Notes under the pieces: model-generated
Seen by the model: the letters and a program-made list of their open reading frames with translations, nothing else
Told to the model about the DNA's origin: nothing
Database searches by the model: none
Virus record (IMG/VR): IMGVR_UViG_3300020469_000002
Coordinates: 1 to 64,000 of that record
Source of the DNA: a virus
Strand: one strand, 5' to 3'
Length of the DNA: 64,000 bases
Position numbers and translations under genes: made by a program
Part shown: positions 15,021-55,979 of the stretch, in pieces
Numbering within the stretch: position 1 is the first letter of the stretch
How the letters are laid out: each line of letters starts with the position of its first letter

Positions 15021-15141
15021 ACCGACATCGCTCAATCAACCGTATCAGAACCCCATTGGCCTTATCGAGATCTGAATGATACTGTCATCTTCGGACGCCC
15101 AGCCAGCAGGCGCAGAACTCGAAATCACGGGAGCGCCAAAA

Positions 15142-17568: not shown

Positions 17569-17579
17569 GGAGACCTACG

Positions 17580-18575
17580 ATGGCAAACCCAACTTGGGCA
17601 GCACTCGACGGACAGCGACGCGAGGCGTTTCAGCGTGCAGTCAACGTGTCGAACGCTGGTTCGTACCTGATCCAGAACTACACAAACCGCATCATCGAGC
17701 AGCTTTCGGTTCGCGAGTTTGGTGCTCTCGGAACTATGGACCGCCGACCCGGTCAGGGCTCGCAGGCCATGGTCAACCGACGCACCGGCGCGACGATGAA
17801 CGCAGCGAACGTGTGGGTGTCGGACACTGTGGCTCTTACTGAGTCCACTGGTTCCTACGATCAGGCGACCTTCACCTACATGACTCTCGCCACTCGTGGC
17901 AAGGTCACTCGGAAGATGCGCGCTCGCGGTCGTTCGTACCTCGACATTCTCGCGGACGAAATGACCCACAAGCTCGACGACTTCAACAACTCGCTGGAAA
18001 GCGCGATCTTCACTGGCGACTCGGGTGCCATCTCGACTCAGATGGACGGTCTGCTCACGCAGATCAACGCCGTCTCGACTCAGGTGATCGCGAACACCAA
18101 CGCAACTGTTGGCGACTCGCTCACCTTGTCGAAGCTCGATGAAGCAATCGACGCTGTTCGTGGAGCAGGCAATCGTTCAGATCTTGCGATCTACGCATCG
18201 TTCCTCGGCGCCCGCAAGCTGAACGCTGCACTTCAGGCTGATCAGCAGTTCTCCAACATGGTTGAAGTGGCTGCTGGCTTCCGCGTGCGGACCTACGATG
18301 GCATCCCGATCATCGTTTCGACTGGTCTCGGTGACGACCTCGGTTGGAGCGGTAGCGCGCTGGACAAGCTCGCTGGCGAGACCACCGAGCCGACCACTTC
18401 GCTCGTGATCGTCAACAAGCGCCACGCATGGCTGGAGGAGCTTACGCCCACCACCATGATGCCGCTTGCTCGCGACGACAGCCAGTTCGAGCAGTTCGAC
18501 ATCTTCTGGGATGGCGCTTGCGTGCTGGGCAACACCAGCGGTGCAGCAATCCTTGGCGGAATCTCGATCTCCTGA
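17580..18575 (+). CDS. Major capsid protein (HK97 fold)
   Basis: Follows protease; strong RBS TAAGGAG; LESAIFTGD..MDGL, TYDGIPII; followed by a hairpin. Confidence 0.85.
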   Translation: MANPTWAALDGQRREAFQRAVNVSNAGSYLIQNYTNRIIEQLSVREFGALGTMDRRPGQGSQAMVNRRTGATMNAANVWVSDTVALTESTGSYDQATFTYMTLATRGKVTRKMRARGRSYLDILADEMTHKLDDFNNSLESAIFTGDSGAISTQMDGLLTQINAVSTQVIANTNATVGDSLTLSKLDEAIDAVRGAGNRSDLAIYASFLGARKLNAALQADQQFSNMVEVAAGFRVRTYDGIPIIVSTGLGDDLGWSGSALDKLAGETTEPTTSLVIVNKRHAWLEELTPTTMMPLARDDSQFEQFDIFWDGACVLGNTSGAAILGGISIS

Positions 18576-18606
18576 TCGTCTCGCGCACACTGCGCGGTCG
18601 TTCTTT

Positions 18607-18689: not shown

Positions 18690-19163
18690 ATGGGTATCCA
18701 GACCGAGGTTCCTGAGCGTGGCACTTACGAGCACGTTTTGATTCGCAAGGATCGCGACGCAAGTGTCGAGCGCGGTGTTCCCATGCGGTTCGTTTGCTAC
18801 GGCGAAAACACCGTATCTCGCAGCGTAGAGTGGCAAGGGAATCGTGTACACACGATTTTTCTTCGAGACCATGTTTCTGCGAAACGCGCATGGCGAAAAG
18901 GGTGGATCGACATCACTGATCCATGGTTTGCGATGCTCGACGATCAGATCTGTGAGCCGACGAGCATTCCACAGCAGGCAATCTTTGAGGCTCTTGACGA
19001 CAAAGAGTGGAAGTCGAAAGCTGAGATCGTGAAGCAGGCTCAGATCAAGGACAGTGAGTGGCGAACAGCCATTCGCACTCTGATCGAAAAAGATCTTGTG
19101 AAGGTCACGGGTGCGACGAATCGAAGCTACCGATACCGTAGAACGGATGTGATCGATGGCTGA
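18690..19163 (+). CDS. Hypothetical protein with C-terminal winged HTH
   Basis: GGAGG RBS; KAEIV..WRTAIRTLIEKDLVKVTG..YRY. Confidence 0.7.
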   Translation: MGIQTEVPERGTYEHVLIRKDRDASVERGVPMRFVCYGENTVSRSVEWQGNRVHTIFLRDHVSAKRAWRKGWIDITDPWFAMLDDQICEPTSIPQQAIFEALDDKEWKSKAEIVKQAQIKDSEWRTAIRTLIEKDLVKVTGATNRSYRYRRTDVIDG

Positions 19164-19728
19164 TCTCACGACGCAAGCGAAGTGCAAGCGAGCACTTGGA
19201 ATCCCATCTGCTCTGACCATGCACGACGACTATCTGGACACTCTGATTGAAGTCGCAGACGCACAGGTCGTCGGGTACTGCGGCGTGGCTGGATTCACTT
19301 CGAGCACCGTCACTGCGGAAGCATACGACATCGAAATGACCTCTCAATCAGAGGTTGTTCTTCGGAACTTCCCCGTTTCTGCTGTTTCTGCTGTAGTTTC
19401 CGCGGGGACGACTCTGAACGAAAACGCATGGTATTTCGACAGCAATACGGGAACGATTCGTCTGGTCTCGTTGGGTGGCTTCTTTCCGCAGGGAAATCAA
19501 ACAGTCAAAGTGTCTTACACATACGGCTTTTCTACAATCCCCAGCGACCTCTCACACGCTGCAACGATTGTGGTGTGTGGACTATTCAACCGCACGAGAC
19601 ATGCTGGTCTCGCGACGGAAGCTGCTGCTGGATACCGATACAGAGTTGAAGATCAAGGGATTCCAAGAGCAGCAGAGGCGATTCTGTCTCGATACAGACG
19701 ACTCATTCCACGAGGGAGTCAACCATGA
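19156..19728 (+). CDS. Head-tail connector (adaptor)
   Basis: DDYLDTLIEVA..YCG..FPVSAV..VKVSYTYGF..IPSDL..ILSRYRR; position. Confidence 0.85.
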   Translation: MADLTTQAKCKRALGIPSALTMHDDYLDTLIEVADAQVVGYCGVAGFTSSTVTAEAYDIEMTSQSEVVLRNFPVSAVSAVVSAGTTLNENAWYFDSNTGTIRLVSLGGFFPQGNQTVKVSYTYGFSTIPSDLSHAATIVVCGLFNRTRHAGLATEAAAGYRYRVEDQGIPRAAEAILSRYRRLIPRGSQP

Positions 19729-20090
19729 TGTACGAACGCTTCGTAGCCAGCGGCGATCCTACTGGCACTACAATGAAAGTTCGACTCCCTGAACGATACG
19801 CAAAAGCAAATCGTGATGGAGATCGATGGATCGTTCAAGCTCTCAATGCCGGCGAAGCAAGTCGATTGAAGCGAGAAGACTGGCGAGTCATGATCGCGGT
19901 CGCAGAACCCGCTGAAACCATTCCCTCCTTCGACGTTCTTCTAAGTACGGTCTCTGCTCTGGAGACAGCACTCGCGTCTGGAATCTTCGACGCGTTTTTG
20001 CACGAGCTTCGTGAGGAAGAGACATTCAACAAGAACCGAAGAACTGCACTCGCAGCGATCGATGAACGAATCGAAACGGTTGATGGTTGA
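19725..20090 (+). CDS. Hypothetical virion-associated protein
   Basis: EE..NKNRRTALAAIDERI motif; operon coupling. Confidence 0.65.
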   Translation: MMYERFVASGDPTGTTMKVRLPERYAKANRDGDRWIVQALNAGEASRLKREDWRVMIAVAEPAETIPSFDVLLSTVSALETALASGIFDAFLHELREEETFNKNRRTALAAIDERIETVDG

Positions 20091-21085
20091 TGCGCGCTCT
20101 GATTACAGGCGGCGCGGGCTTCATCGGAACGAGACTCGTGACATGGCTGCACGATCGCGCCGACGAGATCTTCGTATACGACTCTCGTGAGAAGCCTGCG
20201 ACTGGCTGGGGTACGTGCGTGAATCTTCTCGGTCATGATCGTGTGCTTCTTGGCCATGTTCAAGACATGCAGAGAATGTCTGACTTGGTTCAGCGAATCA
20301 GGCCCGACGTGGTTCTTCATCTTGCCGCTCAGTCGCACGTCGATGCTTCGATTAAGTCACCAACAGAAACGATTGAGGCGAATGTACTTGGAACTCACGT
20401 CGTTGCGATGGTTTGTGCAAGATGGAAAGTGCCTCTCGTGTACTGCTCGACGGACGAGGTGTACGGCGACGCTCTCGGGTGTGAAAGAGCATCGCGCGAA
20501 TATGACCCGCTCGAACCTTCCAGCCCCTACAGTGCGTCCAAAGCGTCAGGTGAGTTGTTGGTTCGTGCGATCTCGAGAACTTTTGGACTCGACTTCGCAA
20601 TCACACGAGGAACGAACGCGTTTGGTCCCGGTCAGTATCCCGAGAAGCTGATTCCTATCGCTTGCCGAATGCTGCATAGCGGAGAGCGAGTGCAGCTTCA
20701 TGGCGGCGGTTTTCAGATTCGACAATGGGTACACGTTGACGAGTTCGCAGAGTGTCTCGCGCTCGTGGCGCAGCGACTCGTCGAGAGAGATGAAGACGTG
20801 ATCGGGCAGACGTTCAATATCGCAGGACCCGAACGAATCAGTGTGATTGGACTTGTAGAAATGCTCGCGAAGCGAATGGGTGTGTCAGTCGATGACGCCC
20901 ACGAAGCTACTGCCGATCGGCCGGGTGGAGATGCAGAGTACTATGTTGATGGATCTCGGGCACGAGACGTTCTCGGTTTCCAAGCTAAACGAGTAATCAC
21001 GCACGATAACGAGCTTGAACTCTTGATTTCCGAATACGCATCTGTCGGATGCTTTCACGCGACAGTGTATGGAGGTGCAGCATGA
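20087..21085 (+). CDS. rmlB: dTDP-glucose 4,6-dehydratase-like SDR
   Basis: GGAGFIG, HLAAQSHVD, STDEVYG, PYSASK, GPGQYPEKLIP, DRPG. Confidence 0.9.
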   Translation: MMRALITGGAGFIGTRLVTWLHDRADEIFVYDSREKPATGWGTCVNLLGHDRVLLGHVQDMQRMSDLVQRIRPDVVLHLAAQSHVDASIKSPTETIEANVLGTHVVAMVCARWKVPLVYCSTDEVYGDALGCERASREYDPLEPSSPYSASKASGELLVRAISRTFGLDFAITRGTNAFGPGQYPEKLIPIACRMLHSGERVQLHGGGFQIRQWVHVDEFAECLALVAQRLVERDEDVIGQTFNIAGPERISVIGLVEMLAKRMGVSVDDAHEATADRPGGDAEYYVDGSRARDVLGFQAKRVITHDNELELLISEYASVGCFHATVYGGAA

Positions 21086-21615
21086 GAAACGGTATCAGCG
21101 GTGTCGGGGTGGTGCTCGAAGCCTCAAATCTTCAGCCTTCTGATTGGAGCGCGATGCACAGGCTTGATGCTGTGATTTCTGCTCCCTTCCCTGCTCGCTA
21201 CGATCAGGACATCTTCTGCTTGGTGTTTCAGTCCGAAGATGATGCAGAGGACGCAGATACCATTCGAACTGCTGATGCATTACGAATCGTCTTCATCGGC
21301 AAGCCGGGAAAGAAAACACTCGCTGCGTTGATCGCGCGACACGAACCATCTGGTCTCGTGAAAGCGTTTGTGGTTGATACGACGGTTTTCTGTTTTCGTG
21401 TGTACTGGAAAGATTGGCAGCCGCCTTTGATTGAGAAGTCTCCTAACTTTGAGACCCGAGCGATGAAGTGCGTGACAGAGACACACGCTCAGAAACGCTC
21501 TCAGAAGCGCGCTCAGTCTTCGCGAGCGAAGAAGACGCGCAACGTGTCAGACAACAGCACGACAAGCAGCACAGACGCAGACAGACGCGCTACCGATGCT
21601 GCTGGGGATGAATAG
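21082..21615 (+). CDS. Hypothetical protein with low-complexity C-terminus
   Basis: GGAGG RBS, ATGA coupling. Confidence 0.65.
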   Translation: MRNGISGVGVVLEASNLQPSDWSAMHRLDAVISAPFPARYDQDIFCLVFQSEDDAEDADTIRTADALRIVFIGKPGKKTLAALIARHEPSGLVKAFVVDTTVFCFRVYWKDWQPPLIEKSPNFETRAMKCVTETHAQKRSQKRAQSSRAKKTRNVSDNSTTSSTDADRRATDAAGDE

Positions 21616-22125
21616 ATGCACGCTTCGATTTGCGCATGGGTCACACAGCTTCGACGAAAGTACCCGAAGCACTTTGATGTCGGCTGTAGAGTGCTCGAAT
21701 ACGGATCACGAGATGTGAACGGAAGCGTTCGACCATATTTCATGGCTCCGAAAGAGTACGTCGGGATCGACTGCTACGCTGGCCCGTGCGTTGACGTGGT
21801 TGGGGTTGCTCACGAGTATGAGCCGAAAAAGGCGAACTTCGATGTCGTGATCACGACGGAAATGCTGGAGCACGACCCGCACTGGAAGCTCACGCTGGAA
21901 CATGCTGCGCGTATGCTTCGATCTGGTGGTCTTCTGATCTTGACCTGCGCGGCACCCAAGCGACCCCCACACAACCACTCAGACAGCCCGACTCCCGGGT
22001 ACTATGAGAACCGTACACCGGCTGAAGTAGTTGACGAGCTTTCCAAGCACTGCAAATGGAAAGAACTCGACGCATGGCTGGAGCGAGCAGACTTGGATCT
22101 GCACTGCGTAGGAATCAAGAAGTGA
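21616..22125 (+). CDS. Class I SAM-dependent methyltransferase
   Basis: VLEYGS.DVNGS, YVGID..VDVV, FDVVITTEMLEH, LRSGGLLIL. Confidence 0.88.
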   Translation: MHASICAWVTQLRRKYPKHFDVGCRVLEYGSRDVNGSVRPYFMAPKEYVGIDCYAGPCVDVVGVAHEYEPKKANFDVVITTEMLEHDPHWKLTLEHAARMLRSGGLLILTCAAPKRPPHNHSDSPTPGYYENRTPAEVVDELSKHCKWKELDAWLERADLDLHCVGIKK

Positions 22126-22748
22126 GCACCGTTACCTCGATGGCGACGAGATACTGGACCTTCTATCGAAGGACCGCGTTCGTCGTAGACAGCACGACTC
22201 TCGCCGCCACAATCGCGGTGTCGAGAAACCTTGACTCGGCTGCTCACATCGACTTGGTGGTCACACTCGATACTGGTGGAAGCATCAACGCAACGATCAC
22301 GATCGTCGGGACAGACTCAGCGGGAAGCTCTACAACAGAGGCGATTGCCTTCACGGGAGCCGGTGCGCGTTCATCTACGAAAAGATGGTCGAGCATCACA
22401 GAGTTGCAGGTCTCGGGAAGCTACACTGGGGCGACGATTAAAGCACGCGCCGCAAGTGCAGACGGAACAGCAAACCTGATTCGATACGTCGCCGCGTCGA
22501 GCAGACCAATCGCCTTTGCGTTTGCAGGAGCAGCGAAGTACCCAGCACTGAATCAGGGGTCCCACGAGCTTGATCAGGGCACAGTTTTGATTGACTATGA
22601 AGAAGTCTGGACGCCCAGAGTCGGGGACATCGCGATCGACGATCAGAACAACGAAGAGTGGGAGATTCGCGGGGTGAGACAGCAAATCTTGGGCTTCGGG
22701 GTTCGACCACACCACTACCGGCTACATGCAACGATACTGGACTCGTAA
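22122..22748 (+). CDS. Putative head-closure (stopper) protein with N-terminal extension
   Basis: PRVGD...WEIRGV..HHY C-terminus; position among neck genes. Confidence 0.55.
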   Translation: MSTVTSMATRYWTFYRRTAFVVDSTTLAATIAVSRNLDSAAHIDLVVTLDTGGSINATITIVGTDSAGSSTTEAIAFTGAGARSSTKRWSSITELQVSGSYTGATIKARAASADGTANLIRYVAASSRPIAFAFAGAAKYPALNQGSHELDQGTVLIDYEEVWTPRVGDIAIDDQNNEEWEIRGVRQQILGFGVRPHHYRLHATILDS

Positions 22749-22781
22749 TACACACTACGCCGCAGAAACCTTGGAGGTTCA

Positions 22782-25586
22782 ATGGCTACACAGTGGAAGC
22801 GTGACGAAACGAACAGCACGCTGATCATCATTCCCACGATGGGCAACCCGTCTCTCATCTTGCCCGCAGTACAGCGGGTGGTGATGCACAGCGGGTCTGA
22901 GTCTTTTCATCTTTGCATCGTTGCGAACCCACAGTGGGAGCATCGAGACGCAGTTGCCGCTGCCGAGCGTCAATGTCGGGTGATTGTCGAGGCGACAAAC
23001 GCGCTTCGAGAAAACAAGATTCACCTGACTTGGGAGCAGATGCCGGGACCTGCTGGATGGGTTGGCGCTGTTAATCAGGGTGTAGAGGTTGTCTCACAGC
23101 GCACAGGTCTTCCAGAGCACATCGTTGTCATGAACGACGATCTTCTGGTGACTGCTGGCTGGACTGATCGACTTCGTGCTGCGTTCGAGACTGAAAATGT
23201 CCATCTTCGAATCGAGCTTGTGACGCATGGGCAGCGGTATCTCGAAGGAGACGGGCACAGCGCGAAGGCATACGGCAAGATCGGAATGGTTGGTCCGGTG
23301 AGCGCGAATGTCGCTGGTGCTCAGAATCTTCAGCCCCCGTCTGCACGCGTTCCATCCGGTGCTCTTTTCGAGATTGACCCAGCGCAAGCTCTCGATGACT
23401 TCGCGGTTCAGAACGCTGATCAGAACGATGGTGTCGTGCTTTCCGCAGACTTCTTGTCTGGCTTCTGCACCATGTATACGCGGGACTGCTTCATCGCGCT
23501 TTGCGAGGACAGCGATGACGGGCTTCTGCTCGACCCGACATACCGAATCGGTGGTTTTGACGACAACGATGTCAGTGCCCGAGCCAGCATCCTTGGCTAT
23601 CGGTTGGGAATCGCGGTCGACTGCTACGTGCATCATCTTGGACATCGCACCTTGGACAAGGTGTATCCATCGCAAGCGCGAGGATTGGCGAACGCGCCAC
23701 ACTTCCTGAAGAAGTGGATGCCTCGAACCAAGCGAGATCAGCGACTCGTCGCCGTCTATCGAGTGGGCTTCTCTACATCGTGGGACATCACTATGTTCCG
23801 CACTTCACTCGAACGCACTGCCGAGCTTGTCGATGGCATCGCGGTTCTCGTGACCAACAATCCTAACGACATTCATCGTCATTCGTCGTTTCGGCTGGGC
23901 GAGCTTGGCCCTGATGAAGCAGAGCTTGTTGCGTCTACTGGACCAGACTACCCCGACAAAAAGAGTCCGATCGAAAAGTGGCTCAAAACGGTCGTGGACA
24001 CAGAGAAGGTCGATCTCGCAGTAGAGTTTCGAGACTCTGAAAAGCATGAGTGGAACGAACGAGACGAGCGAAACCAAGCAATCGAGCTTGCCGAGAGTCT
24101 GAGTCCAGACTGGATGATCTCGATCGATCATGACGAAATCGTGGAAGATCGTGTCACTCGCGAAAGTCTCGCTCGACTGATGCGTCACCCAAACCCACTC
24201 GTTCAGTCATACGACATCGGGTTTTTGACTCACTGGGACACTCCGCGTCTTCACCGCACAGATCGACCATACGCAAACGGCTACTCGTCGAATATGCGCG
24301 GTTTTCGTATGTGGCGATTCAACGCTGCTTCTCCCGCACGAATCCAGACCGGTACTCGAAAGGGTCTGCACTGCGGGAACGTCCCGCCGTTCAGTGAAAC
24401 GTCGCAGCGAGTATCGGGCATCCGTATGCGTCACTTCGGCTACTTGCGAGGCAGTGATCGTCTGCGGAAGTTCAAACGATACGCGGCTTGGATGGACCCG
24501 AATCCAAACGATCGACTGACTGGTGGTGGATACGGGCATATTCTCTGTGAAGAGGGCATGGAGATCAACGCGTACAGCCCGCGAAACGGAATCGTCTTCT
24601 CGATGCTCATGCACTCGGGCGAGCGTTCGTGGGATCTGTACCGTCACTTGGATACTCTGTACGGTCTCGTAGACAAGATCATTCTCGTGTGGACTGACTC
24701 TGCTGAGATCCCTGATGACATTCGCACAATCGCAGACGCGTTTGAGTGCAAGTGGGTGCATTCTCCATTCGAGGAGTCTTCGTCTCTCGCGAAGTGTCGA
24801 AACGCAGCGATTGATCTTGCTCACGAAGAGGGTGTTCAGTCTCTACGGTGGATGCTCACTTTCGATCCAGACGAGCATCTGGCTGCACCCGTCAATGATG
24901 TGATCGCACTGCGTCGAATGGCCGAAGTGACAGACTCGCTTGGTTGGATGATGCAGTTTCGCAATCACCGATCAGACGGTCAGTTCAATATGTCTGAGAC
25001 TGTTCGGATGTTCACGCTCGATGATCAACGAGTCATGCGGTATTCGGGCAGAGTTCACGAACGACTTGAAGACGCGATGAAGGAGCTTGGGTCTCGCGGG
25101 ATTCACCCGAAGATTCGATACTCTCCCTTCATCATCAACCACTATGGTCTCGCGAAAAGCGACCAGCAGATGCAGGATAAGCTGGAGAGGTACACGACTC
25201 TTCTTCATGCTGCGATCAAGGAAAACCCATACGAGTGCGGTCACTGGACATCACTCGGGCTTCAATACGCAAATGACGGCGAAGCCCAGAAGTTCGAAGA
25301 GTGTATGCGGATCGCTCGCGAGTGCAGCGGAAGTGCGTATCTTCCGTGGAAAGTCAGCGGTCAACATGCGCTCCGTCAAGCACGCAAGTATTTTGAGCAC
25401 TGCGTTCAATCACTTGTCCCAAGTCATCCATACGCACGCGATCTGACTCGCATTGTCGAGTGGCTTCGCGAGAACGCTCCGGACATGCCTGTTTCTGGTC
25501 ACGCTCGAACCGGTGCTGCCTCTCCACCAAAAATCGACCTCGACGAGCTTCTGGATCGATACAACAATGGAAGTGAGCAGGAGTAG
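22782..25586 (+). CDS. Multidomain GT2 glycosyltransferase (three GT-A domains plus TPR-like tail)
   Basis: IIIPT..MNDD..GFDDND..HHLG; RNQAI..SIDHDE..HFGY; RNAAI..FDPDE..GRVHE..HYG..KLERY..ENP. Confidence 0.88.
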   Translation: MATQWKRDETNSTLIIIPTMGNPSLILPAVQRVVMHSGSESFHLCIVANPQWEHRDAVAAAERQCRVIVEATNALRENKIHLTWEQMPGPAGWVGAVNQGVEVVSQRTGLPEHIVVMNDDLLVTAGWTDRLRAAFETENVHLRIELVTHGQRYLEGDGHSAKAYGKIGMVGPVSANVAGAQNLQPPSARVPSGALFEIDPAQALDDFAVQNADQNDGVVLSADFLSGFCTMYTRDCFIALCEDSDDGLLLDPTYRIGGFDDNDVSARASILGYRLGIAVDCYVHHLGHRTLDKVYPSQARGLANAPHFLKKWMPRTKRDQRLVAVYRVGFSTSWDITMFRTSLERTAELVDGIAVLVTNNPNDIHRHSSFRLGELGPDEAELVASTGPDYPDKKSPIEKWLKTVVDTEKVDLAVEFRDSEKHEWNERDERNQAIELAESLSPDWMISIDHDEIVEDRVTRESLARLMRHPNPLVQSYDIGFLTHWDTPRLHRTDRPYANGYSSNMRGFRMWRFNAASPARIQTGTRKGLHCGNVPPFSETSQRVSGIRMRHFGYLRGSDRLRKFKRYAAWMDPNPNDRLTGGGYGHILCEEGMEINAYSPRNGIVFSMLMHSGERSWDLYRHLDTLYGLVDKIILVWTDSAEIPDDIRTIADAFECKWVHSPFEESSSLAKCRNAAIDLAHEEGVQSLRWMLTFDPDEHLAAPVNDVIALRRMAEVTDSLGWMMQFRNHRSDGQFNMSETVRMFTLDDQRVMRYSGRVHERLEDAMKELGSRGIHPKIRYSPFIINHYGLAKSDQQMQDKLERYTTLLHAAIKENPYECGHWTSLGLQYANDGEAQKFEECMRIARECSGSAYLPWKVSGQHALRQARKYFEHCVQSLVPSHPYARDLTRIVEWLRENAPDMPVSGHARTGAASPPKIDLDELLDRYNNGSEQE

Positions 25587-25590
25587 TGTC

Positions 25591-26115
25591 ATGGAAGTTG
25601 AGATCAGATTCCCAGAAATGGGGACAACGCTGAAGGACATCGACAAGTTCGGCAGCAAGAAGGCATCAAAGGCAAAGAAGAAGGCACTCCAGAACGCTGG
25701 AGCAGTCTTGAAGATTGCGATCCAACAACATCTGAGCTTGACTACCTACACGCTCGCAGATCTCGAACGTATGGACCACCCATATGCGAAGCGACACGGA
25801 TCAATCAAAGTTCATCCATCTCGACCGTTTGTGGTTCATCAAAGAAGCACGAAAATGCGCAACTCCGTCACGAGTGAGTCGAAGTGGCGAGCAGGCGGGT
25901 ACGGCGGTGGAGGTGGGTGGGGGCAGCTTGTCGGACTTGACTACGGAAAGGAAAAATACTTCAAGTACGTGATCGAAGGAACCAACAAGATGCTTCCTCG
26001 AAACACTGTTTTCATGGTGAGTCAGCTTAAAAGTGTTCGCAAGGGCATGATGATGGCTGTTGTTCAAACGCTCGGTCGTCAGCTTCGCACCAAAGCAACT
26101 GTGAGATTCAAATAA
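25591..26115 (+). CDS. Tail completion protein (HK97 gp10-like)
   Basis: Basic protein with KYVIEGTNKMLPR motif; position. Confidence 0.7.
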   Translation: MEVEIRFPEMGTTLKDIDKFGSKKASKAKKKALQNAGAVLKIAIQQHLSLTTYTLADLERMDHPYAKRHGSIKVHPSRPFVVHQRSTKMRNSVTSESKWRAGGYGGGGGWGQLVGLDYGKEKYFKYVIEGTNKMLPRNTVFMVSQLKSVRKGMMMAVVQTLGRQLRTKATVRFK

Positions 26116-26531
26116 TGCCTGCCGCAAGTCTCGCAGACGCGAAGTTTCTGATTCGTGATGTTCTACTCAATGACAGCGATGTTTCTGCCATTGTTGGTGG
26201 TCGCGTATTCGGTGCTCATCTTCAAGATCCTGATGCACGAACAGTCGAGTACCCGATCGTGATTTTGGATCTTCGATCTGGAGTCGCCTCTACTTCAAGT
26301 GTTTCACGAGCAACGCTCGATCTGTGGGCATACTCGCGGAAGAGTGGTGGAGACGCGTTGCGACTCTACGATGCTTGTCAAAAGGCGCTTCAGCAGGAGC
26401 TTCTTCGTCGAGAAGGGATCGCAGTTGCCGGTTACGTGGTTGAGCAGAACAGACCCAATGAAGGCTGGAATGACAACGTGCGCGCCTACTACGCGCAGGG
26501 TGATTTCACCGTTCGCACTGTCAACAGGTGA
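26115..26531 (+). CDS. Tail terminator protein
   Basis: L..D.DVSAIVGGRVF..YPIV..DLWA; position before tail tube. Confidence 0.8.
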   Translation: MPAASLADAKFLIRDVLLNDSDVSAIVGGRVFGAHLQDPDARTVEYPIVILDLRSGVASTSSVSRATLDLWAYSRKSGGDALRLYDACQKALQQELLRREGIAVAGYVVEQNRPNEGWNDNVRAYYAQGDFTVRTVNR

Positions 26532-27336: not shown

Positions 27337-27891
27337 ATGCCGTTCAACGTACCTACCGTCACCACAAGCGACATTTCCTTCGGCCCAGCGGTCGTCTATC
27401 TCGGAGCAGCAGGCGCGACTCCGAGTGTTGATGTCGGGGCAATCACCGAGGATGGGGTCTCTGTCGAGATCACCAGTGAAAAGCGATACATCGCTCAGGG
27501 CAACCCTCGGATCAACTACTACAACTTCACTCAGGCTCAGTCCGTCATGGTCGGCTTCACGTCGATCGAATGGGACTTCGAGAACTTTGTGAAGGCACTC
27601 GGAGCAGGTGTCACCACCGGCAGTGGTGCAAGCCCCGACACTTTCTCGTTTGGCGGTGACCCGCTGGTCGATGAGGTTGCGATTCATGTTCAGCACTACA
27701 TGGCGAGCAGTGGAAACACTCTCAACGTGTACGTGTGGAAGGCAACAAGTGAGCAGGGTCTCACGATGCCATTCGGTCAAGATGAGCACCAGTTCGAGTT
27801 CAAGTTCACCGCGCTTGCGTCGAACACTGAATGGAACGGTGGTGCTACCGCTGCGTCCACACGCCTGATCAAGCTGTCTCGCGAAGCGTGA
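27337..27891 (+). CDS. Major tail tube protein
   Basis: GPAVVY..DVGAITEDGVSVE..FKFTAL; position. Confidence 0.85.
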   Translation: MPFNVPTVTTSDISFGPAVVYLGAAGATPSVDVGAITEDGVSVEITSEKRYIAQGNPRINYYNFTQAQSVMVGFTSIEWDFENFVKALGAGVTTGSGASPDTFSFGGDPLVDEVAIHVQHYMASSGNTLNVYVWKATSEQGLTMPFGQDEHQFEFKFTALASNTEWNGGATAASTRLIKLSREA

Positions 27892-28866: not shown

Positions 28867-28934
28867 TCCGATCCAGTCGAGACTTCACGAGTCTCGTTGG
28901 ATAGAGTGTGAGAGCACTCGAACGGAGACGGACA

Positions 28935-31900
28935 ATGGCCGATTCCACCATAGCCAAGCTGTTCGTCGAGCTTGGATTCAAGGACAAGGACTTCAAGAGG
29001 GGTCTGAAGAGCACGAAGTCCGGCTTGAAGAACATGGAGAAAGTCGGTCAACAGATCTCAGGGATCTTTGGCGGAATCGTCGTTCGCGCGTTCAAGGCTG
29101 CGACAGCTTCGATCACTGCTCTGGGCGCGGCGAGTGCTGTTGTTGGCGCGAAGTTCGAGCAGGAGATCACGACCGTTGCGGCTGTTTCTGGTGCGACCGC
29201 TGCCGATCTTGAAAGACTGACGAATACAGCGAGAGACTTCGGTTCGACAACCACGTACTCAGCGACACAGGCTGCGACCGCTATGCAGTCACTTGCTCGC
29301 GCGGGTATGGAAACGAACGAGATCATCACAGCTACTGGACCTGCACTGAACCTCGCTGGTGCATCCGGCGAAAGCATGTCTCTTGCTACTGAATCGCTCG
29401 CAGCGACGATGGCCCAGTTTTCACTCGACGCATCAGAAGCAGGTCGAGTCAGTGACGTGTTCGCAGAGGCTTTGCGTTCCTCTCTCTTCAATCTCGGTTC
29501 TCTCCGAGAGGCGATGAAGTACGCAGGTACCGTTGGTGCCGGCTTCAACATGACACTGGAAGAAACAGTCGCAGCGGTCGCTCAGTTCCGAGATCTTGGT
29601 CTCGAAGGCAGCATGGCTGGTACGCAGTTGCGAATGGCGATGTCTTCCGCGGCACGAGGAACGGAACGAAGCAAAGAGGCACTGAAGAAGCTCGGGCTGG
29701 TACAGGCACAGATCAACCCGACAATGAACACATTTTCAGAGATTCTAAAGACCGTCGGTGACGCCGGAATCCAAGCCGACGATGCGATCGCAATCTTCGG
29801 ATCACGCGCTGGCTCGAACATGGCACTGCTCGCAAAGCAGTTCGCAGCAGGCGGCGAGAAGTACAACGAGTTGCTTTCTAAGTTGGAGACATCAACGGGC
29901 ACTGCACAGCAGATGTTCGAGGAAATGACGGATACAGTGAGAGGTCAGTTCACGATCGCAAGAAGCGCGATGGAAGAGCTATTGATCTCCCTCTTCGACT
30001 CGTACAAAGGCCCACTCAAAGACGCTCTCAGTGCGGTTGCCGAGGTGATTCAAGACATCGCAACCGAGTTCAAACGATCAAGCGATCAAATCGCAGGTAC
30101 AGCCGAAAGTGTTTTCGGCAGCTTCGCGAGAGACATTCGAGCGAACAGCGAAGAAATCGCGAAGCAGTTTGTCTCCATCATTGAGTTTGTGACCACTCTG
30201 ATCGGAATGTTCGCGAGTCTTCGACCGATCGCGAAAGAGCTTTTCCTGATCATGACTGCGGTGTTTGCAGTCGGTCAAATCATCGTGTTCATGGCTGTTC
30301 TGGGACAGGCAGTTCTTGGCTTTCATTTGCTCAAAGCCGCAATAATCTCAACCGCAGCGACACTCACAGCGACAACAGGTGGGCTTTACGCGCTTGTGGT
30401 TGCGGTTGGAATTCTAATCACAACCGTCGGGGTGCTGACTGTCAAATACTCTTCTGCTGGTGCGGCGGCAGAGAGGCTGTCGAAAGCACAGGCGGAAATA
30501 GACAAGCAAAGAGCGAAAGAAGACGCTCTTGCGATGGAGGGTGCACAAAACGCTCAGACCATCACCGCAGAGCTAATGCGGCAGAAAGAGCTGGAGTTGA
30601 AGTCTCAGAATACTCTTACTGAGTCGTACTCTCGACAGTTGAAAATGCTCCAGAAGCTCAGTGCAGAGCAGCTTCGACAGAAAGAGCTTTCTGGTGAAGT
30701 CGTTCGAGTCAATCAAGATGGGCAGGAGGTCTTCAAGACTACCGCGATGCTCGTCGAAGAGGCTTCGAACGCGTCTCTCGGAAGCGCAGACGCGGCAGAA
30801 CAGCTTTCCGGAGCGATTCGGAATCTGCAACAGAGTTTCGCAGACAACTCAGCAGAGCTGGAAGCGGGTCACGCAGAGATTGACAAGTACGAAGAGGTGT
30901 TGGAGGCAACAGGCGGATCAGTCAAACTTGCCGGCGTAGAGTTGAAGTCATTTGGTGGTTCAGTCGAGAAAGCCACCAAGCAGATGGCGTTTCTCGGTGA
31001 GAAAAATCAGGTTCTCACAAAGACCTTTGAAGGGCTCGAAAAGAACATCAAGGAGACCCAACATTCTTTGGCGAGAGGAGAGGTTTCAAAGGCGTTGTTC
31101 GTCGAGGGAGAGAATGCAGAAGAGGCAGCGAAAAAGCTGAAGGAGTACCAAAAGGCACTGGATGCTGCTCGAAAGGCTCGGAAAGATCTCGTAGATCAGA
31201 TGTCGGAGGACTTCACTGCTACCTTCGAAACGGAAACACAAGCTCGTAGACGCGCACTGGACGAGCAGGTTGCTCTAATCGAGGAGACTTTCGCAAAAGA
31301 GATCGCTCTGGTCTCGAAAAACAAGGCTCTTGTTGAGACACTGGAGCGCCTGAAGCAAGACACGATTCTTCAAGCGAGAATCGTTGCCGGGCACGAGCAG
31401 CGAGACGAGACGCAATCTCAGGTAGACCAGCTTCTCGATATTCGCAGACATGAAGGTCTGTCTGAAAGCATGATGCGGGCAAAGAACCGCCAGTCCCAAC
31501 TTGAAGAAATGAAAGCCGCGTTCGTGATTGAAGCTGGACTTCATCAAGAGGGTTCTGCTGAAAGACAGGCGGTTCTGGTTCGCGAGCAAGAGGCTCTTTC
31601 TGTCCTTCGAAACCAGTTTCGCGCAGAAGATCTACGAATCGCGTCTGCGACAGCGAAAGAGACAGCGGAAGTAGTCGCAGGGATCGAGAAGCAGGTCACG
31701 CTCGAAAACGGTCACGAGTTGACCCGAATCAACATGGAGCTTGCAGACGCGAAGAAGTCGATTTCGAAAGGGTCAGCGGACGAGCTTGCTCGTGTAGACG
31801 AGATTTATGCTGATCGAGCGAAGAAGGTTGGTCAGCGAATCAAGGAAGATGCGAAGGCGATTACGGACTCGCGATACGCAGAGCAGCTTGCGTTGACGAG

Positions 31901-54503: not shown

Positions 54504-54985
54504 TGTTCCATTCCTTCGGCTCGCTCTGCGAGTCGAGCCACACGTCGCCGCACAGAAAACGGCGCACAGTTCAAACGGTCGCGAATCTCTCGCTCAGTCC
54601 AGCCTTCGACCCGAGCGCGTACTGCATCGCGCTCGTCCTTGGTCGCAAGCTCCAAAACTCGTTGTGCTTCCACACCTGCTTCGATCTTCTTCTGAGAAGC
54701 GTTGCTGGGGTGCTCGTTGTCCAAATACTCGGTCTCCGTCATTCTTCGACGACGTTGACGAAGAAGTGTGGTCGCAACAGCCCTGCACTGCCATGAAGCC
54801 CAGGTTGCCGCGTTGCTTCTCGACTCGTCGAACCTGCTGTGACACTCGACCAGTCGAACCACGAGGGACTGACGAACATCATCAACGTCCAGACGTTTTG
54901 ATCGAGCCCAGTGAGCGGCGGTCCGCTCGACGATGTTGATCCTTGCGAGCCAGTAGACCCACGCTTCAGCGTTGCTCTCGCTCAT
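54500..54985 (-). CDS. Sigma70-family (ECF-like) RNA polymerase sigma factor
   Basis: Region 2 DDVRQ..RFDESRS..TW; region 4 EGWTEREI..LNC..SVRRR. Confidence 0.75.
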   Translation of the reverse strand: MSESNAEAWVYWLARINIVERTAAHWARSKRLDVDDVRQSLVVRLVECHSRFDESRSNAATWASWQCRAVATTLLRQRRRRMTETEYLDNEHPSNASQKKIEAGVEAQRVLELATKDERDAVRARVEGWTEREIRDRLNCAPFSVRRRVARLAERAEGMEQ

Positions 54986-55590
54986 CCGTCAATCTCCTTG
55001 TTCCAGTCGAACGCGACCTTGTGAACCAGATCTGGGTTTTCGTGAGGGCTCTTTCTGTACTCGTCGGTTCCGTCGTATTCGTGAGAACAGATGTTCAAGA
55101 CCCAGGACTCTGTGGACCCCAGTGCTTTCCAGCCGTGTGCGACTCCAGGCGGCACACAAACAACTCGCGGGTTTCGCTGACTGTCGAGGACGAGTCTCGT
55201 AGCTTTGCCCGTTTGCAGATTGCACAGGCCCAGCAAGATGCGCCCTCGCAGCACGACGAAGCGGTCCGTCTGCTTTGAGTGAAGATGCCAGCCCTTGATC
55301 ACTCCAGGCGCAGTCGTAGAAATGTACGCTTGCCCAAACGTGGCTGCCATCTTGCCCATGAACGGGGTCAGAGCTTCGAGTGTCGTGAAAGATTCCTCAG
55401 CCCAGGACGCTCGATACAACTCTACGAGCGACCCGCGCTCGTCAAGATGCCAGCGAAGGGAGAAGGAGTAGTGCGTCTCGTCCCACGTCTCGTGTGGTTT
55501 CGGGATGTTGATTGGCTCCGTGAAGTGCTGCGAGTATCCATTCGCAAGCGCACGGCGCACAACAGATTCAGGTGGTTCATTCTCACTCAT
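54982..55590 (-). CDS. rmlC: dTDP-4-dehydrorhamnose 3,5-epimerase
   Basis: DERGSLVE, Q..IS...GVIKGWHLH..Q, VPPGVAHGW. Confidence 0.88.
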   Translation of the reverse strand: MSENEPPESVVRRALANGYSQHFTEPINIPKPHETWDETHYSFSLRWHLDERGSLVELYRASWAEESFTTLEALTPFMGKMAATFGQAYISTTAPGVIKGWHLHSKQTDRFVVLRGRILLGLCNLQTGKATRLVLDSQRNPRVVCVPPGVAHGWKALGSTESWVLNICSHEYDGTDEYRKSPHENPDLVHKVAFDWNKEIDG

Positions 55591-55979
55591 TTTGTGTCCT
55601 CCTTTTGGATCGGTACAAGTTCGAGTGGGGGCGCGTACCCATGCACGCGAATCCACTCCTGACGCAAAGCGCCGTAGACTGCGCCCGAGACTGGTGCCCG
55701 AGACGCGTTTAGAACTCGCCACAGCGCGCCTACTGCGCTGCGACGCGTTGATCGAGTCGAGACAAGCGCAGACGCGTAGAACGCGCGCAGGCGAGCAGAT
55801 AGCGCGTGCCATCGACGTGCAAAGAGACAAGCGCGATCGACATCTTGACAAGTCATTCCATCATTTTCGTGAAGTGCGAGAACGATCGTCTCGATTGTAG
55901 ATCCCACGAACTCCACGTCTCGGAGAGAGTGAAGAACCGCAAGCGCGTGCAAGAGTCGCACGCGCGTGTCCGTTTTCAT
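55587..55979 (-). CDS. Hypothetical protein
   Basis: Fills operon gap, ATGA coupling to rmlC. Confidence 0.5.
   Translation of the reverse strand: MKTDTRVRLLHALAVLHSLRDVEFVGSTIETIVLALHENDGMTCQDVDRACLFARRWHALSARLRAFYASALVSTRSTRRSAVGALWRVLNASRAPVSGAVYGALRQEWIRVHGYAPPLELVPIQKEDTK

What the first reader, a model, noticed from the sequence alone, without database searches (positions are those of the whole stretch)
22782..25586. Three GT2 catalytic domains and a TPR-like tail in one polypeptide
Seen: three DxD-type centres (NDD, DHDE, DPDE), each with its own GT-A flanking motifs. Domain 1 resembles rhamnosyltransferase-type GT2s (GFC...GFDDND..HHLG). Domains 2 and 3 resemble the SunS/flagellin-glycosylating GT2 type (RN.A...W...D.DE...GRVHE...HYG), followed by a helical TPR-like segment. 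Inference: an assembly line in which the TPR-linked domain primes a protein acceptor and the other two extend a short glycan, with the neighbouring methyltransferase capping it.
Basis: partly seen in the sequence, partly recalled or inferred. Interest (0 to 1): 0.8.

Follow-up and report, generated by a model that had tools for sequence, protein, structure and literature searches.

The report
Triple glycosyltransferase in phage neck operon
An uncultured marine phage carries, between its head-closing and tail-joining genes, one 934-residue soluble enzyme made of three intact sugar-transferase domains plus a protein-binding repeat. It most likely builds a short glycan on the phage's own particle proteins, but no chemistry has been done.

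Summary
ORF 22782-25586 (+) encodes a 934-aa soluble protein that AlphaFold2 models with high confidence (pLDDT 92.9, pTM 0.90). It has three GT-A glycosyltransferase folds and a C-terminal TPR-like helical domain.

- D1 (1-318) is a canonical GT2 with the motifs NDD and GGxDND.
- D2 (319-600) and D3 (601-793) are diverged paralogs of the SunS/ThuS/GmaR type, which glycosylates proteins.
- D3 plus the TPR reproduces the ThuS/GmaR architecture.

All three metal-binding centres are conserved in 45 of 46 distinct relatives, down to 25% identity. In two relatives, canonical inteins sit exactly at the D1 DND motif and the D2 HC|GN motif.

The gene is a syntenic core gene of an uncultured marine phage lineage, represented by at least 219 clusters at 50% identity. 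It always lies between the head genes and the neck/tail-completion genes. Variable nucleotide-sugar genes lie upstream; here these are an RmlB-like dehydratase and a SAM methyltransferase, with RmlC- and RmlD-like genes elsewhere in the genome. I found no cultured-phage or cellular full-length homolog.

Virion-protein glycosylation is the best reading (about 0.6), but the acceptor, the sugars and the order of domain action are untested. The scan noted the same architecture before in another genome (e1-6030850).

The parts
22782..25586 (+). Whole gene: 934-aa D1-D2-D3-TPR trifunctional glycosyltransferase. It is soluble, with no TM segment.
   Evidence: ORF and translation. SD GGAGG upstream. 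AF2 pLDDT 92.9, pTM 0.90. The highest 19-aa Kyte-Doolittle window is 1.35. 81 full-length homologs.
22782..23735 (+). D1 (aa 1-318): canonical GT2-type GT-A domain.
   Evidence: VIA Z 17-18 against ppGalNAc-Ts, WrtF, Leptospira GT 6p61 and SpsA over model residues about 9-290. Profile A5 hits DPMS at 2.4e-7 and the K4CP chondroitin polymerase at 1e-6.
23133..23141 (+). D1 metal/nucleotide-sugar motif N118-D119-D120 (DxD equivalent), directly after strand 113-117.
   Evidence: N118 and D120 invariant, D119 at least 90%. NDD, NND or SDD in all 46 loci. Strand position.
23562..23570 (+). D1 D261-N262-D263 of GGFDDND. It aligns with the GGEDNE motif of K4CP and is the candidate catalytic-base loop. 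H285 (23634-23636) is also invariant.
   Evidence: Invariant. Alignment to K4CP. In relative P0200 an HNH intein is inserted directly after this motif.
23736..24581 (+). D2 (aa 319-600): SunS-like GT-A domain with a helical insertion (about 361-410) that the short forms lack.
   Evidence: Domain-only model pLDDT 92.4. SunS Z 15.0 (204 aa, rmsd 3.2), against 11.7 or less for other GT-A folds. Foldseek SunS/ThuS E about 1e-6. hhalign D2 vs D3 94%, E 1e-7. GmaR E 0.022.
24126..24137 (+). D2 DxDE centre, D449-H450-D451-E452, after strand 444-447.
   Evidence: D449, H450 and D451 are at least 90% conserved and E452 is invariant in the 62-sequence alignment. DxDE in 45 of 46 loci; only L043 is degenerate (ETSE).
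24369..24380 (+). D2-specific motif H530-C531-G532-N533.
   Evidence: At least 90% conserved. In relative P0151 a LAGLIDADG intein is inserted exactly between H and C, with canonical Cys1 ... Asn | Cys+1 boundaries.
24582..25160 (+). D3 (aa 601-793): GmaR/SunS/ThuS-family GT2 domain.
   Evidence: Profile A4 hits GmaR at 8.9e-20, SunS at 1.9e-14 and ThuS at 6.3e-10, with aRN, W..DxDE, VHE and HxG aligned. VIA ThuS Z 18.7 and SunS Z 17.5.
24864..24875 (+). D3 DxDE centre, D695-P696-D697-E698. The partner motifs are R673-N674 (24798-24803), V758-H759-E760 (25053-25061) and H787-Y788-G789 (25140-25148).
   Evidence: D695, D697, E698, H759, E760 and G789 invariant. DxDE and VHE (IHE in L061) in all 44 loci that reach this region.
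25161..25583 (+). C-terminal TPR-like helical domain (aa 794-934, seven helices).
   Evidence: Helices. Profile hits to consensus TPR proteins over positions 800-895. Pfam TPR_1/2/8 hits in relatives. The ThuS/SunS structural alignment runs on to residue about 899.
20087..21085 (+). RmlB-like NDP-hexose 4,6-dehydratase. It is part of a variable sugar cassette.
   Evidence: TIGR01181 at 1.9e-69, 234 bits, below the equivalog cut-off of 365. Pfam Epimerase and GDP_Man_Dehyd. Detected in about 38 of 60 related loci.
21616..22125 (+). SAM-dependent methyltransferase, an optional tailoring gene.
   Evidence: Methyltransf_23 at 8e-10 and phrog_32762 at 1.7e-32. Detected upstream of the enzyme in 16 of 60 related loci, about 10 distinct.
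22140..22748 (+). Conserved upstream neighbour 'orf230' (about 202 aa, beta-rich, function unknown). It could be a head-closure-type structural protein or a candidate acceptor.
   Evidence: Detected upstream in about 50 of 60 loci, directly adjacent in most. No Pfam, PHROG, NCBIfam or PDB assignment. The Atlas finds only viral hypotheticals.
25591..26115 (+). Neck1/tail-completion-like gene. Its ATG lies 4 nt after the enzyme's stop codon.
   Evidence: phrog_5 at 5e-4. Sequence. Syntenic in most related loci.
54982..55851 (-). RmlC-like cupin (dTDP-sugar 3,5-epimerase family), distant from the cassette.
   Evidence: PF00908 at 40.7 bits, above its cut-off, at 55057-55464. TIGR01221 only 3e-5.
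60287..61036 (-). RmlD-like reductase.
   Evidence: PF04321 at 49.1 bits, above its cut-off. TIGR01214 at 4.4e-15, below the equivalog cut-off.

Best explanation
The gene encodes a soluble, late-expressed, single-chain trifunctional glycosyltransferase. It most likely decorates the phage's own virion protein(s) with a short, defined glycan.

Shown:
- There are three separate GT-A catalytic domains, each with a conserved metal/nucleotide-sugar centre, and a C-terminal TPR-like domain. All are modelled as one compact body.
- D3+TPR is a homolog of the protein glycosyltransferases GmaR (flagellin O-GlcNAc transferase) and SunS/ThuS (peptide S-glycosyltransferases).
- D2 is a diverged paralog of D3.
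- D1 is a canonical GT2.

Inferred:
- The TPR docks a folded phage structural protein.
- One SunS-like domain, most simply D3, puts the first sugar on a Ser/Thr (or Cys) side chain. The other two domains each add one further sugar.
- The donors come partly from phage genes. RmlB-, RmlC- and RmlD-like enzymes would convert host dTDP-glucose to a 6-deoxyhexose, and the neighbouring SAM methyltransferase may O-methylate the glycan in this phage.
- In relatives the enzyme is constant, but the upstream nucleotide-sugar genes differ. The glycan is therefore probably diversified between phages.
For: Fold and homology:
- Whole-protein model pLDDT 92.9, pTM 0.90.
- D1 Z about 18 to GT-A enzymes; D3+TPR Z 18.7 to ThuS.
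- D2 alone Z 15.0 to SunS, more than 3 units above other GT-A folds.
- D3 profile hits GmaR at 8.9e-20 and SunS at 1.9e-14.
- D2 and D3 are paralogs: hhalign 94%, E 1e-7.

Catalytic integrity:
- All three centres are invariant or nearly so and are kept in 45 of 46 loci down to 25% identity.
- Homing inteins with canonical boundaries sit exactly at the D1 DND motif and the D2 H|CGN motif in two relatives. From established knowledge, inteins home to conserved functional sites.

Context:
- The order MCP, adaptor, [variable sugar genes], orf230, enzyme, neck1, tail completion, tail tube is syntenic over 60 viral loci.
- There is no promoter or terminator excess between these genes, the SD is strong, and the gap to the next gene is 4 nt.
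- Contigs from a marine RNA library cover the gene at 100% identity.
- There is no TM segment.
- RmlB-, RmlC- and RmlD-like genes are present.
- Variable cassettes in relatives include a UDP-glucose dehydrogenase, an SGNH esterase and dehydratases.

Precedents:
- GmaR glycosylates flagellin, and its TPR is proposed to recognise the substrate (PMC9638930).
- PBCV-1 A111/114R is a three-GT-domain capsid-glycan enzyme (PMC7826918).
Against: - There is no direct evidence for any acceptor, sugar or linkage.
- The G-x-T-[GA] sequon reported for other phage GT2-TPR systems is not enriched in this phage's structural proteins: 4 observed against 8.2 expected.
- No Ser/Thr-rich C-terminal extension like those of mycobacteriophage capsids is evident in the MCP or tail-tube candidate.
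- Gene position in a structural operon shows timing, not target.
- The RNA-library contigs cannot exclude DNA carry-over.
- D2 lacks the VHE motif shared by D3, GmaR and SunS, and one relative (L043) has lost the D2 centre. D2 may therefore be dispensable or act differently.
- The window's protein fails Pfam GT2 gathering thresholds.
Confidence: 0.6

Rival explanations
1. The enzyme glycosylates a host protein rather than the virion. Candidates are flagellin, pilin, an S-layer protein or a receptor protein. The effect would be to block superinfection, alter motility or take over the host late in infection.
For: D3 is closest to GmaR, a flagellin O-GlcNAc transferase (PMC9638930). SunS and ThuS act on non-viral peptides. 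The TPR only implies some protein partner.
Against: The gene is a syntenic core gene inside the head-tail structural block in all 60 loci, and is not among early or moron genes. Late expression leaves little time for a benefit from host modification.
Confidence: 0.13
2. It builds or modifies a non-protein glycan, acting like a multi-domain polysaccharide polymerase of the K4CP or PmHS2 type. The target could be host envelope polysaccharide, O-antigen, teichoic acid or a free oligosaccharide.
For: Foldseek's top whole-chain hits include the two-GT-domain polymerases K4CP and heparosan synthase 2. D1 aligns to K4CP including the GGEDNE motif. Rml-type genes usually feed cell-surface polysaccharides.
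Against: There is no TM segment or amphipathic membrane anchor. Two of the three domains, plus the TPR, belong to the protein/peptide-glycosylating SunS/GmaR group. The gene sits in the structural module. The K4CP alignments have rmsd 11-16 A, which means shared domains only, not a shared arrangement.
Confidence: 0.12
3. It glycosylates hypermodified phage DNA to evade restriction.
For: Phage GTs commonly glycosylate DNA (reviewed in PMC12619734). This genome carries a Mom-like DNA-modification gene near the terminase.
Against: No thymidylate-synthase-like hydroxymethylase is detected in the complete genome. The gene lies far from nucleotide-metabolism genes. SunS/GmaR homology and the TPR point to a protein acceptor.
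Confidence: 0.04
4. Only one or two domains are catalytic. The remaining GT-A fold(s) serve as a scaffold, a lectin-like glycan binder or an assembly chaperone.
For: One relative (L043) has lost the D2 DxDE and HCG motifs. D2 lacks the VHE motif of its family. The window's domains score below Pfam thresholds.
Against: All three DxD-type centres are conserved in 45 of 46 loci. Inteins sit at the D1 and D2 motifs. In relatives, Pfam detects GT2 in three separate stretches (P0200, 210 bits).
Confidence: 0.1

Closest known systems
GmaR of Listeria monocytogenes (flagellin O-GlcNAc transferase; GT2 domain + TPR; PDB 22ao; PMC9638930)
   Same: The D3 profile matches the GmaR GT domain at E 8.9e-20, with the aRN, W..DxDE, (V/I)HE and HxG(Y) motifs aligned. 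In both, the GT domain is followed directly by a TPR domain. GmaR has a protein acceptor.
   Different: GmaR has one GT domain and a C-terminal antirepressor domain. The phage protein has two further GT-A domains upstream and no antirepressor. The acceptor is unknown.
SunS / ThuS glycocin S-glycosyltransferases (PDB 7msp, 7msn, 7msk)
   Same: They are the best structural matches for D3+TPR (Z 18.7 and 17.5) and for D2 alone (Z 15.0). They also match D3 by sequence profile (1.9e-14 and 6.3e-10). Both have a GT-A domain followed by a helical TPR-like domain.
   Different: SunS and ThuS are single-GT enzymes that modify Cys of small secreted peptides encoded next to them. No glycocin-like precursor, transporter or thiol-disulfide oxidoreductase gene accompanies the phage gene.
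Chlorovirus PBCV-1 A111/114R (three GT domains) and A064R (two rhamnosyltransferase domains + methyltransferase) (PMC7826918)
   Same: Both are virus-encoded single polypeptides with three transferase domains of about 300 aa. The chlorovirus enzymes build a capsid-protein glycan independently of host machinery. Deoxy-sugar and methylation steps appear in both systems.
   Different: The chlorovirus enzymes belong to a eukaryotic giant virus, make N-linked glycans and have no TPR. No sequence or structural relationship was demonstrated here, and they are not among the top 50 BFVD hits.
Mycobacteriophage virion glycosylation (Che8 gp110, Corndog gp38, Myrna; Freeman et al. 2023, as cited in PMC12363180 and PMC12619734)
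   Same: Both involve phage-encoded glycosyltransferases. In the mycobacteriophages these modify the capsid and tail-tube subunits, and the phage carries its own tailoring genes.
   Different: The mycobacteriophages use separate single-domain GTs. tblastn of the whole protein or of D1 or D3+TPR finds no match in 50,697 cultured phage records. The hosts are also different; this lineage is marine and uncultured.
Two-domain GT2 polymerases K4CP and PmHS2 (PDB 2z86, 8vh8)
   Same: They carry several GT-A domains in one chain. D1 aligns to the K4CP A1 domain, including the GGEDNE-type motif.
   Different: They are polysaccharide polymerases with two domains, no TPR and a different domain arrangement (rmsd 11-16 A).

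Membership tests
GT-A fold, GT2-like glycosyltransferase (each of the three domains) | Rossmann-like alpha/beta/alpha GT-A fold | tested here: met
   D1 scores Z 17-18 against ppGalNAc-Ts, WrtF, 6p61 and SpsA. D3 scores Z 18.7 against ThuS. D2 modelled alone scores Z 15.0 against SunS and 11 or more against many GT2s.
GT-A fold, GT2-like glycosyltransferase (each of the three domains) | DxD-type acidic motif immediately after beta-4, conserved across homologs | tested here: met
   NDD 118-120 follows strand 113-117, DHDE 449-452 follows strand 444-447, and DPDE 695-698 follows strand 688-694. All are conserved.
GT-A fold, GT2-like glycosyltransferase (each of the three domains) | Score above the Pfam GT2 gathering thresholds (PF00535, PF13641, PF13704) | tested here: inconclusive
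   The window protein scores 19.6 bits (cut-off 23.3) and 17.6 bits (cut-off 27.5), both below threshold. Relatives pass: P0200 scores 210 bits on PF00535 in 3 stretches and 79.8 bits on PF13704 in 2 stretches. Precomputed PF13641 and PF00535 hits are present in most homologs.
GT-A fold, GT2-like glycosyltransferase (each of the three domains) | Nucleotide-sugar-dependent transfer activity | not testable with these tools
   This needs enzyme assays.
SunS/ThuS/GmaR-type protein glycosyltransferase (GT2 + TPR) | Sequence homology of the catalytic domain, with the aRN, W..DxD(E/N), VHE and HxG(Y) motifs | tested here: met
   For D3: GmaR 8.9e-20, SunS 1.9e-14, ThuS 6.3e-10, with all motifs aligned. 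D2 is only partial: GmaR E 0.022, 94% to D3 by hhalign, and no VHE.
SunS/ThuS/GmaR-type protein glycosyltransferase (GT2 + TPR) | Helical TPR-like domain directly C-terminal to the GT domain | tested here: met
   Seven helices at 794-933. TPR profile hits. The ThuS and SunS alignments extend to residue about 899.
SunS/ThuS/GmaR-type protein glycosyltransferase (GT2 + TPR) | Protein or peptide side chain (Ser/Thr/Cys) as acceptor | not testable with these tools
   No acceptor was identified. The G-x-T-[GA] sequon is not enriched.
Phage virion glycosylation system (mycobacteriophage type) | Glycans demonstrated on capsid or tail subunits | not testable with these tools
   The phage is uncultured. 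Only gene context is available.
Phage virion glycosylation system (mycobacteriophage type) | Homology to the known virion GTs of cultured phages | tested here: not met
   tblastn against 50,697 phage records finds no match for the whole protein at 1e-5, or for D1 or D3+TPR at 0.05.
dTDP-L-rhamnose pathway (RmlA-D) as donor supply | RmlB, RmlC and RmlD equivalogs present | tested here: inconclusive
   All three pass Pfam family cut-offs but fall below NCBIfam equivalog cut-offs: 234 against 365, 23.9 against 155.75, and 55.5 against 224.05 bits. They are 6-deoxyhexose-pathway-like enzymes. The product sugar is not determined.
dTDP-L-rhamnose pathway (RmlA-D) as donor supply | RmlA (glucose-1-phosphate thymidylyltransferase) | tested here: not met
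   PF00483 is not found in the complete 74.9-kb genome. The host would have to supply dTDP-glucose.
Three-GT-domain viral capsid-glycan enzyme (PBCV-1 A111/114R type) | Three GT domains of about 300 aa in one virus-encoded polypeptide | tested here: met
Three-GT-domain viral capsid-glycan enzyme (PBCV-1 A111/114R type) | Homology to A111/114R | tested here: inconclusive
   It is not among the 50 listed BFVD matches, which are dominated by other multi-GT proteins of uncultured phages and giant viruses. This is an analogy, not membership.

The most novel reading that the evidence does not exclude
A widespread lineage of uncultured marine tailed phages uses one core, single-chain enzyme with three active glycosyltransferase domains and a TPR docking module to write a defined tri-saccharide-type glycan onto its own virion proteins. 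The glycan would be diversified between phages by swapping upstream sugar-tailoring genes. This would be the first virion glycosylation system outside actinobacteriophages, and the first single-polypeptide protein-glycan assembly line in a prokaryotic virus.
Probability: 0.45. Interest if true: 0.72.

Novelty: new variant of a known kind. Interest (0 to 1): 0.55.

Why it matters
Among tailed phages, virion glycosylation is established only for mycobacteriophages, where it shields particles from antibodies. Here the candidate system is a core gene of a large marine phage lineage: at least 219 clusters at 50% identity, and 60 viral contigs with the same synteny.

If these particles are glycosylated, sugar coats may be a common feature of environmental phages. 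That would bear on adsorption, grazing, particle stickiness, defence evasion and marine carbon chemistry.

The enzyme is also of biochemical interest. It is a compact, soluble chain with three GT-A active sites and a substrate-docking TPR. That makes it a tractable model, and possibly a tool, for programmed multi-step protein glycosylation in the bacterial cytoplasm.

Tried and rejected
1. Direct family scans of the window protein gave only sub-threshold GT2 hits in Pfam, and nothing in PHROGs or NCBIfam. The architecture had to be shown by profiles and structure.
2. Cultured-phage relatives: none for the whole protein, D1 or D3+TPR. The MCP has only one weak hit, to Bacillus phage PK2.
3. Cellular homologs: the pattern-limited scan of 185,579 species found only single-domain partial matches. 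No full-length form was seen. This does not exclude one.
4. Split forms: the 'shorter' search returned nothing at E 0.001 or below. The unrestricted representative search shows mostly 750-1100-aa proteins; the short ones are probably contig-end fragments.
5. G-x-T-[GA] and G-x-[ST]-[GA] sequon enrichment, a lead from earlier scan notes on other phage GT2-TPR enzymes: not enriched in the structural proteins (4 against 8.2, and 7 against 17.3 expected). The greedy ORF set used there omitted the MCP, the tail-tube candidate and orf230, so those three went unscored. The translations were not checked for the motif.
6. Identity of orf230 (22140-22748) and orf188 (21049-21615): PDB profile, PHROGs, Pfam, NCBIfam and the ESM Atlas gave nothing usable. 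My impression that the C-terminus of orf230 resembles head-closure proteins is untested. orf188 has no homolog in the related loci and may not be a gene.
8. The primary papers on the SunS/ThuS structures and Freeman et al. 2023 are not held. They are cited only through PDB titles and secondary papers.
9. RNA evidence: only Logan contigs of one metatranscriptome sample were available. They show presence at 100% identity, not strand, ends or level.
No complex with candidate acceptors could be modelled, and inter-domain geometry could not be inspected beyond pTM.


Full report
**Setting.** The window is the first 64 kb of a complete 74,927-bp IMG/VR viral record with direct terminal repeats. Near-identical DNA occurs in marine metagenomes from several studies. 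On the + strand, from about 4.8 kb to 42 kb, lies a typical tailed-phage late block:
- small and large terminase, a 1215-aa portal and an 830-aa protease-like protein;
- an SU10/HK97-type major capsid protein (17559-18575) and a head-tail adaptor (19156-19728);
- after the region of interest, a Neck1/tail-completion-like gene (25591-26115), a gp17-type tail-completion gene (26115-26531), an Ig-domain protein that is probably the tail tube (27337-27891), and two giant proteins of 1584 and 1551 aa.

**Observation.** ORF 22782-25586 (+) is open for 934 codons and is preceded by GGAGG 5 nt before the ATG. The next gene's ATG lies 4 nt after its stop. Between the adaptor and the tail genes there is no excess of promoter- or terminator-like sites. 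The only convincing + strand hairpin follows the capsid gene.

One correction is needed: D2 has no GRVHE and carries an invariant GLHCGN instead. Direct family scans are nearly blind to this protein. Pfam gives 19.6 and 17.6 bits, both below threshold, and PHROGs and NCBIfam give nothing.

**Family.** A database search returned 81 full-length homologs of 788-1104 aa at 27-100% identity, all from metagenomes. In a 62-sequence alignment the invariant or nearly invariant positions cluster in three centres:
- N118/D119/D120, D261/N262/D263 and H285;
- W444, S447, D449/H450/D451/E452, H530/C531/G532/N533, and H551/G553/Y554;
- R673/N674, W690, D695/D697/E698, R757/V758/H759/E760, and G789.

A profile of D2 alone, run against 1.84 billion representatives, finds 219 clusters at E 1e-30 or better. 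In nearly all of them D2 sits at residue about 290-340 of a 750-1100-aa protein. Local domain HMMs assign D1-D2-D3-TPR to about 190 of the 214 proteins collected; the rest are mostly contig-end fragments. The short forms of about 780 aa lack only a helical insertion in D2 and some D1 loops.

**Structure.** AlphaFold2 on the 62-sequence alignment gives pLDDT 92.9 and pTM 0.90 for the whole chain, so a single compact body is predicted. Each DxD-type motif follows the fourth strand of its own alpha/beta domain.

- **D1 (model residues about 9-290):** matches polypeptide GalNAc-transferases, the WrtF fucosyltransferase, a Leptospira GT, SpsA and others at Z 16-18. Its profile hits dolichol-phosphate mannose synthase (2.4e-7) and the K4CP chondroitin polymerase (1e-6). 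In the K4CP alignment GGxDND pairs with GGEDNE. D1 is therefore a generic GT2.
- **D3 plus the helical tail:** aligns to ThuS (Z 18.7, 257 residues, rmsd 3.2) and SunS (Z 17.5) up to residue about 899. The D3 profile hits the GmaR GT domain at 8.9e-20, SunS at 1.9e-14 and ThuS at 6.3e-10, with the aRN, W..DxDE, VHE and HxG motifs aligned.
- **TPR tail:** positions 800-895 match consensus TPR proteins.
- **D2, modelled alone from a 42-sequence alignment (pLDDT 92.4):** its best matches are SunS (Z 15.0, 204 residues, rmsd 3.2). The next GT-A folds reach at most Z 11.7. Foldseek agrees, with SunS/ThuS at about 1e-6. Profile-profile comparison makes D2 and D3 paralogs (94%, E 1e-7), while D1 against D3 is only 49%.

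The highest 19-residue hydropathy window is 1.35, so no membrane segment is expected.

**Independent evidence that D1 and D2 matter.** Across 46 distinct viral loci down to 25% identity, all three centres are retained, with one exception: L043, whose D2 reads ETSE and lacks HCG.

Two relatives carry inteins (Pfam Intein_splicing with LAGLIDADG or HNH). Their boundaries are canonical:
- In P0151 the intein lies exactly between H and C of the D2 GLH|CGN motif (Cys1 ... Asn | Cys+1).
- In P0200 it lies directly after the D1 DND motif (Cys1 ... His-Asn | Cys+1).

Inteins characteristically occupy conserved functional sites of important proteins (established knowledge). This marks both motifs as such sites.

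**Context across relatives.** In 60 IMG/VR loci the order MCP, orf175, adaptor, [variable genes], orf230, enzyme, Neck1-like, tail completion, orf111, Ig protein, orf165, giant protein is conserved. The enzyme and its upstream neighbour orf230 (unknown function) are nearly constant. The genes between the adaptor and orf230 vary:
- an RmlB-like dehydratase in about 38 loci;
- the methyltransferase in 16 loci (about 10 distinct);
- elsewhere a UDP-glucose/GDP-mannose dehydrogenase (L034), an SGNH/GDSL esterase (L030), or a dehydratase with an insertion (L029).

In this genome the adjacent dehydratase is RmlB-like (TIGR01181, 1.9e-69). RmlC-like (55057-55464, -) and RmlD-like (60287-61036, -) genes pass Pfam cut-offs but not NCBIfam equivalog cut-offs. 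There is no RmlA. This confirms a lead from an earlier scan note, but only at the level of '6-deoxyhexose pathway-like'. No thymidylate-synthase-like hydroxymethylase is present. Two Pfam GT models (GT2 and GT1/4) found no other glycosyltransferase. That search has limited sensitivity, because it also missed this gene.

**Expression hint.** Four RNA-seq runs of one marine metatranscriptome sample contain contigs 100% identical to the region, including several inside the gene, for example 22467-22940, 23916-24388, 24373-24837 and 25214-25753. These are assembled contigs. They show presence in an RNA library, not transcription as such, and DNA carry-over is not excluded.

**Mechanism.** The best-supported reading is a cytoplasmic, late, single-chain assembly line acting on a protein acceptor.
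- **Shown:** three conserved GT-A centres; a GmaR/SunS-type domain fused to a TPR; a constant position within the structural operon; accompanying nucleotide-sugar tailoring genes that differ between phages.
- **Inferred:** the TPR docks a phage structural protein; one SunS-like domain primes a side chain, and D3 is the simplest guess because it keeps the full family motif set and adjoins the TPR; the other two domains each extend by one sugar; a 6-deoxyhexose is among the donors; this phage may methylate the glycan.

I put about 0.6 on a virion-protein acceptor, about 0.95 on the three-domain architecture, and no more than 0.4 on the proposed order of action. The rivals are a host protein acceptor, a non-protein glycan, DNA, and one or more non-catalytic domains. 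They are listed separately with their refuting tests.

The G-x-T-[GA] sequon reported by earlier scan notes for SgtA-like phage GT2-TPR enzymes is not enriched here. If there is a sequon, it is a different one.

**Comparison with what is known.**
- D3+TPR is a member of the SunS/ThuS/GmaR group by sequence, motifs, fold and the following TPR.
- The whole protein is not a member of any described family. No cultured phage has a relative. A pattern-limited scan of 185,579 prokaryotic species found only single-domain partial hits.
- The literature searches found no description of it.
- Functionally it resembles mycobacteriophage virion glycosylation, which uses separate, unrelated GTs. It most closely resembles the chlorovirus PBCV-1 multidomain enzymes A111/114R and A064R, which are analogous rather than homologous (PMC7826918).
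- BFVD shows that other multi-GT proteins exist in uncultured phages and giant viruses, for example a 1443-aa 'uncultured Caudovirales' protein at E 5e-24. All are uncharacterised.
- The scan itself has already flagged the 800-residue form of this architecture in another genome (e1-6030850). The present case is therefore a second, longer member with added evidence: the domain-2 structure, the inteins, the lineage-wide synteny, the Rml-like genes and the RNA-library presence.

**Verdict.** This is a new variant of a known kind: phage- or virus-encoded protein glycosylation carried out by an undescribed three-GT + TPR single-chain enzyme. Interest is moderate to high (0.55). The claim is robust, widespread and experimentally tractable, but function and acceptor are untested and there are conceptual precedents.

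Noticed in passing
relatives P0151 (aa ~418-747) and P0200 (aa ~198-532): Two family members carry homing inteins (LAGLIDADG and HNH types) with canonical boundaries. They sit at the D2 GLH|CGN motif and directly after the D1 DND motif. Inteins in a phage glycosyltransferase are unusual, and they mark these motifs as functional sites.
   Followed up: partly
window 18581-18597 (+): A terminator-like hairpin lies just after the capsid gene. In four RNA-library runs of one sample, the long contigs covering the capsid gene end at 18529-18595. This fits an attenuator that boosts capsid mRNA, but contigs cannot prove it.
   Followed up: partly
window 22140-22748 (+): orf230 is a beta-rich protein of about 202 aa with conserved Gly/Thr-rich strands. 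It is detected upstream of the enzyme in about 50 of 60 related loci and has no detectable family. It could be a head-closure-type protein or the enzyme's acceptor.
   Followed up: partly
window 21049-21615 (+): orf188 has no homolog in any related locus, a low-confidence Atlas model (pLDDT 0.39) and a Ser/Thr/Ala/Asp/Arg/Lys-rich tail. It may be a lineage-specific small gene or not a gene at all.
   Followed up: partly
L043:10859-11665: In one relative D2 is degenerate (ETSE instead of DxDE, HCG deleted) while D1 and D3 are intact. This looks like a natural two-active-site variant, or else an assembly error.
   Followed up: no
L029:8189-9886, L030:7846-9888, L034:5138-7186, L030:5594-6253: Related phages carry different genes upstream of the enzyme. 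These include a UDP-glucose/GDP-mannose dehydrogenase with a ~220-aa N-terminal extension, an SGNH/GDSL esterase-like gene, and extra ORFs of 565-680 aa with no Pfam match between orf230 and the enzyme.
   Followed up: partly
window 11373-15020, 15076-17568, 28908-33662, 33672-38327 (+): Several structural genes are unusually large: a 1215-aa portal (the portal match covers only about residues 66-596), an 830-aa protein with a weak protease match, and two consecutive giant proteins of 1584 and 1551 aa downstream of the tail tube.
   Followed up: no
window 55990-57408 (-): A 472-aa protein resembles the RavA stimulator ViaA (VWA-type; 1.7e-16). It lies next to the RmlC-like gene in the non-structural arm.
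   Followed up: no
P0197 (1027 aa): This family member has a rearranged architecture: D1, a D2 fragment, a 275-aa non-intein insertion with a TPR_2 hit, then the rest of D2 at the C-terminus.
   Followed up: no
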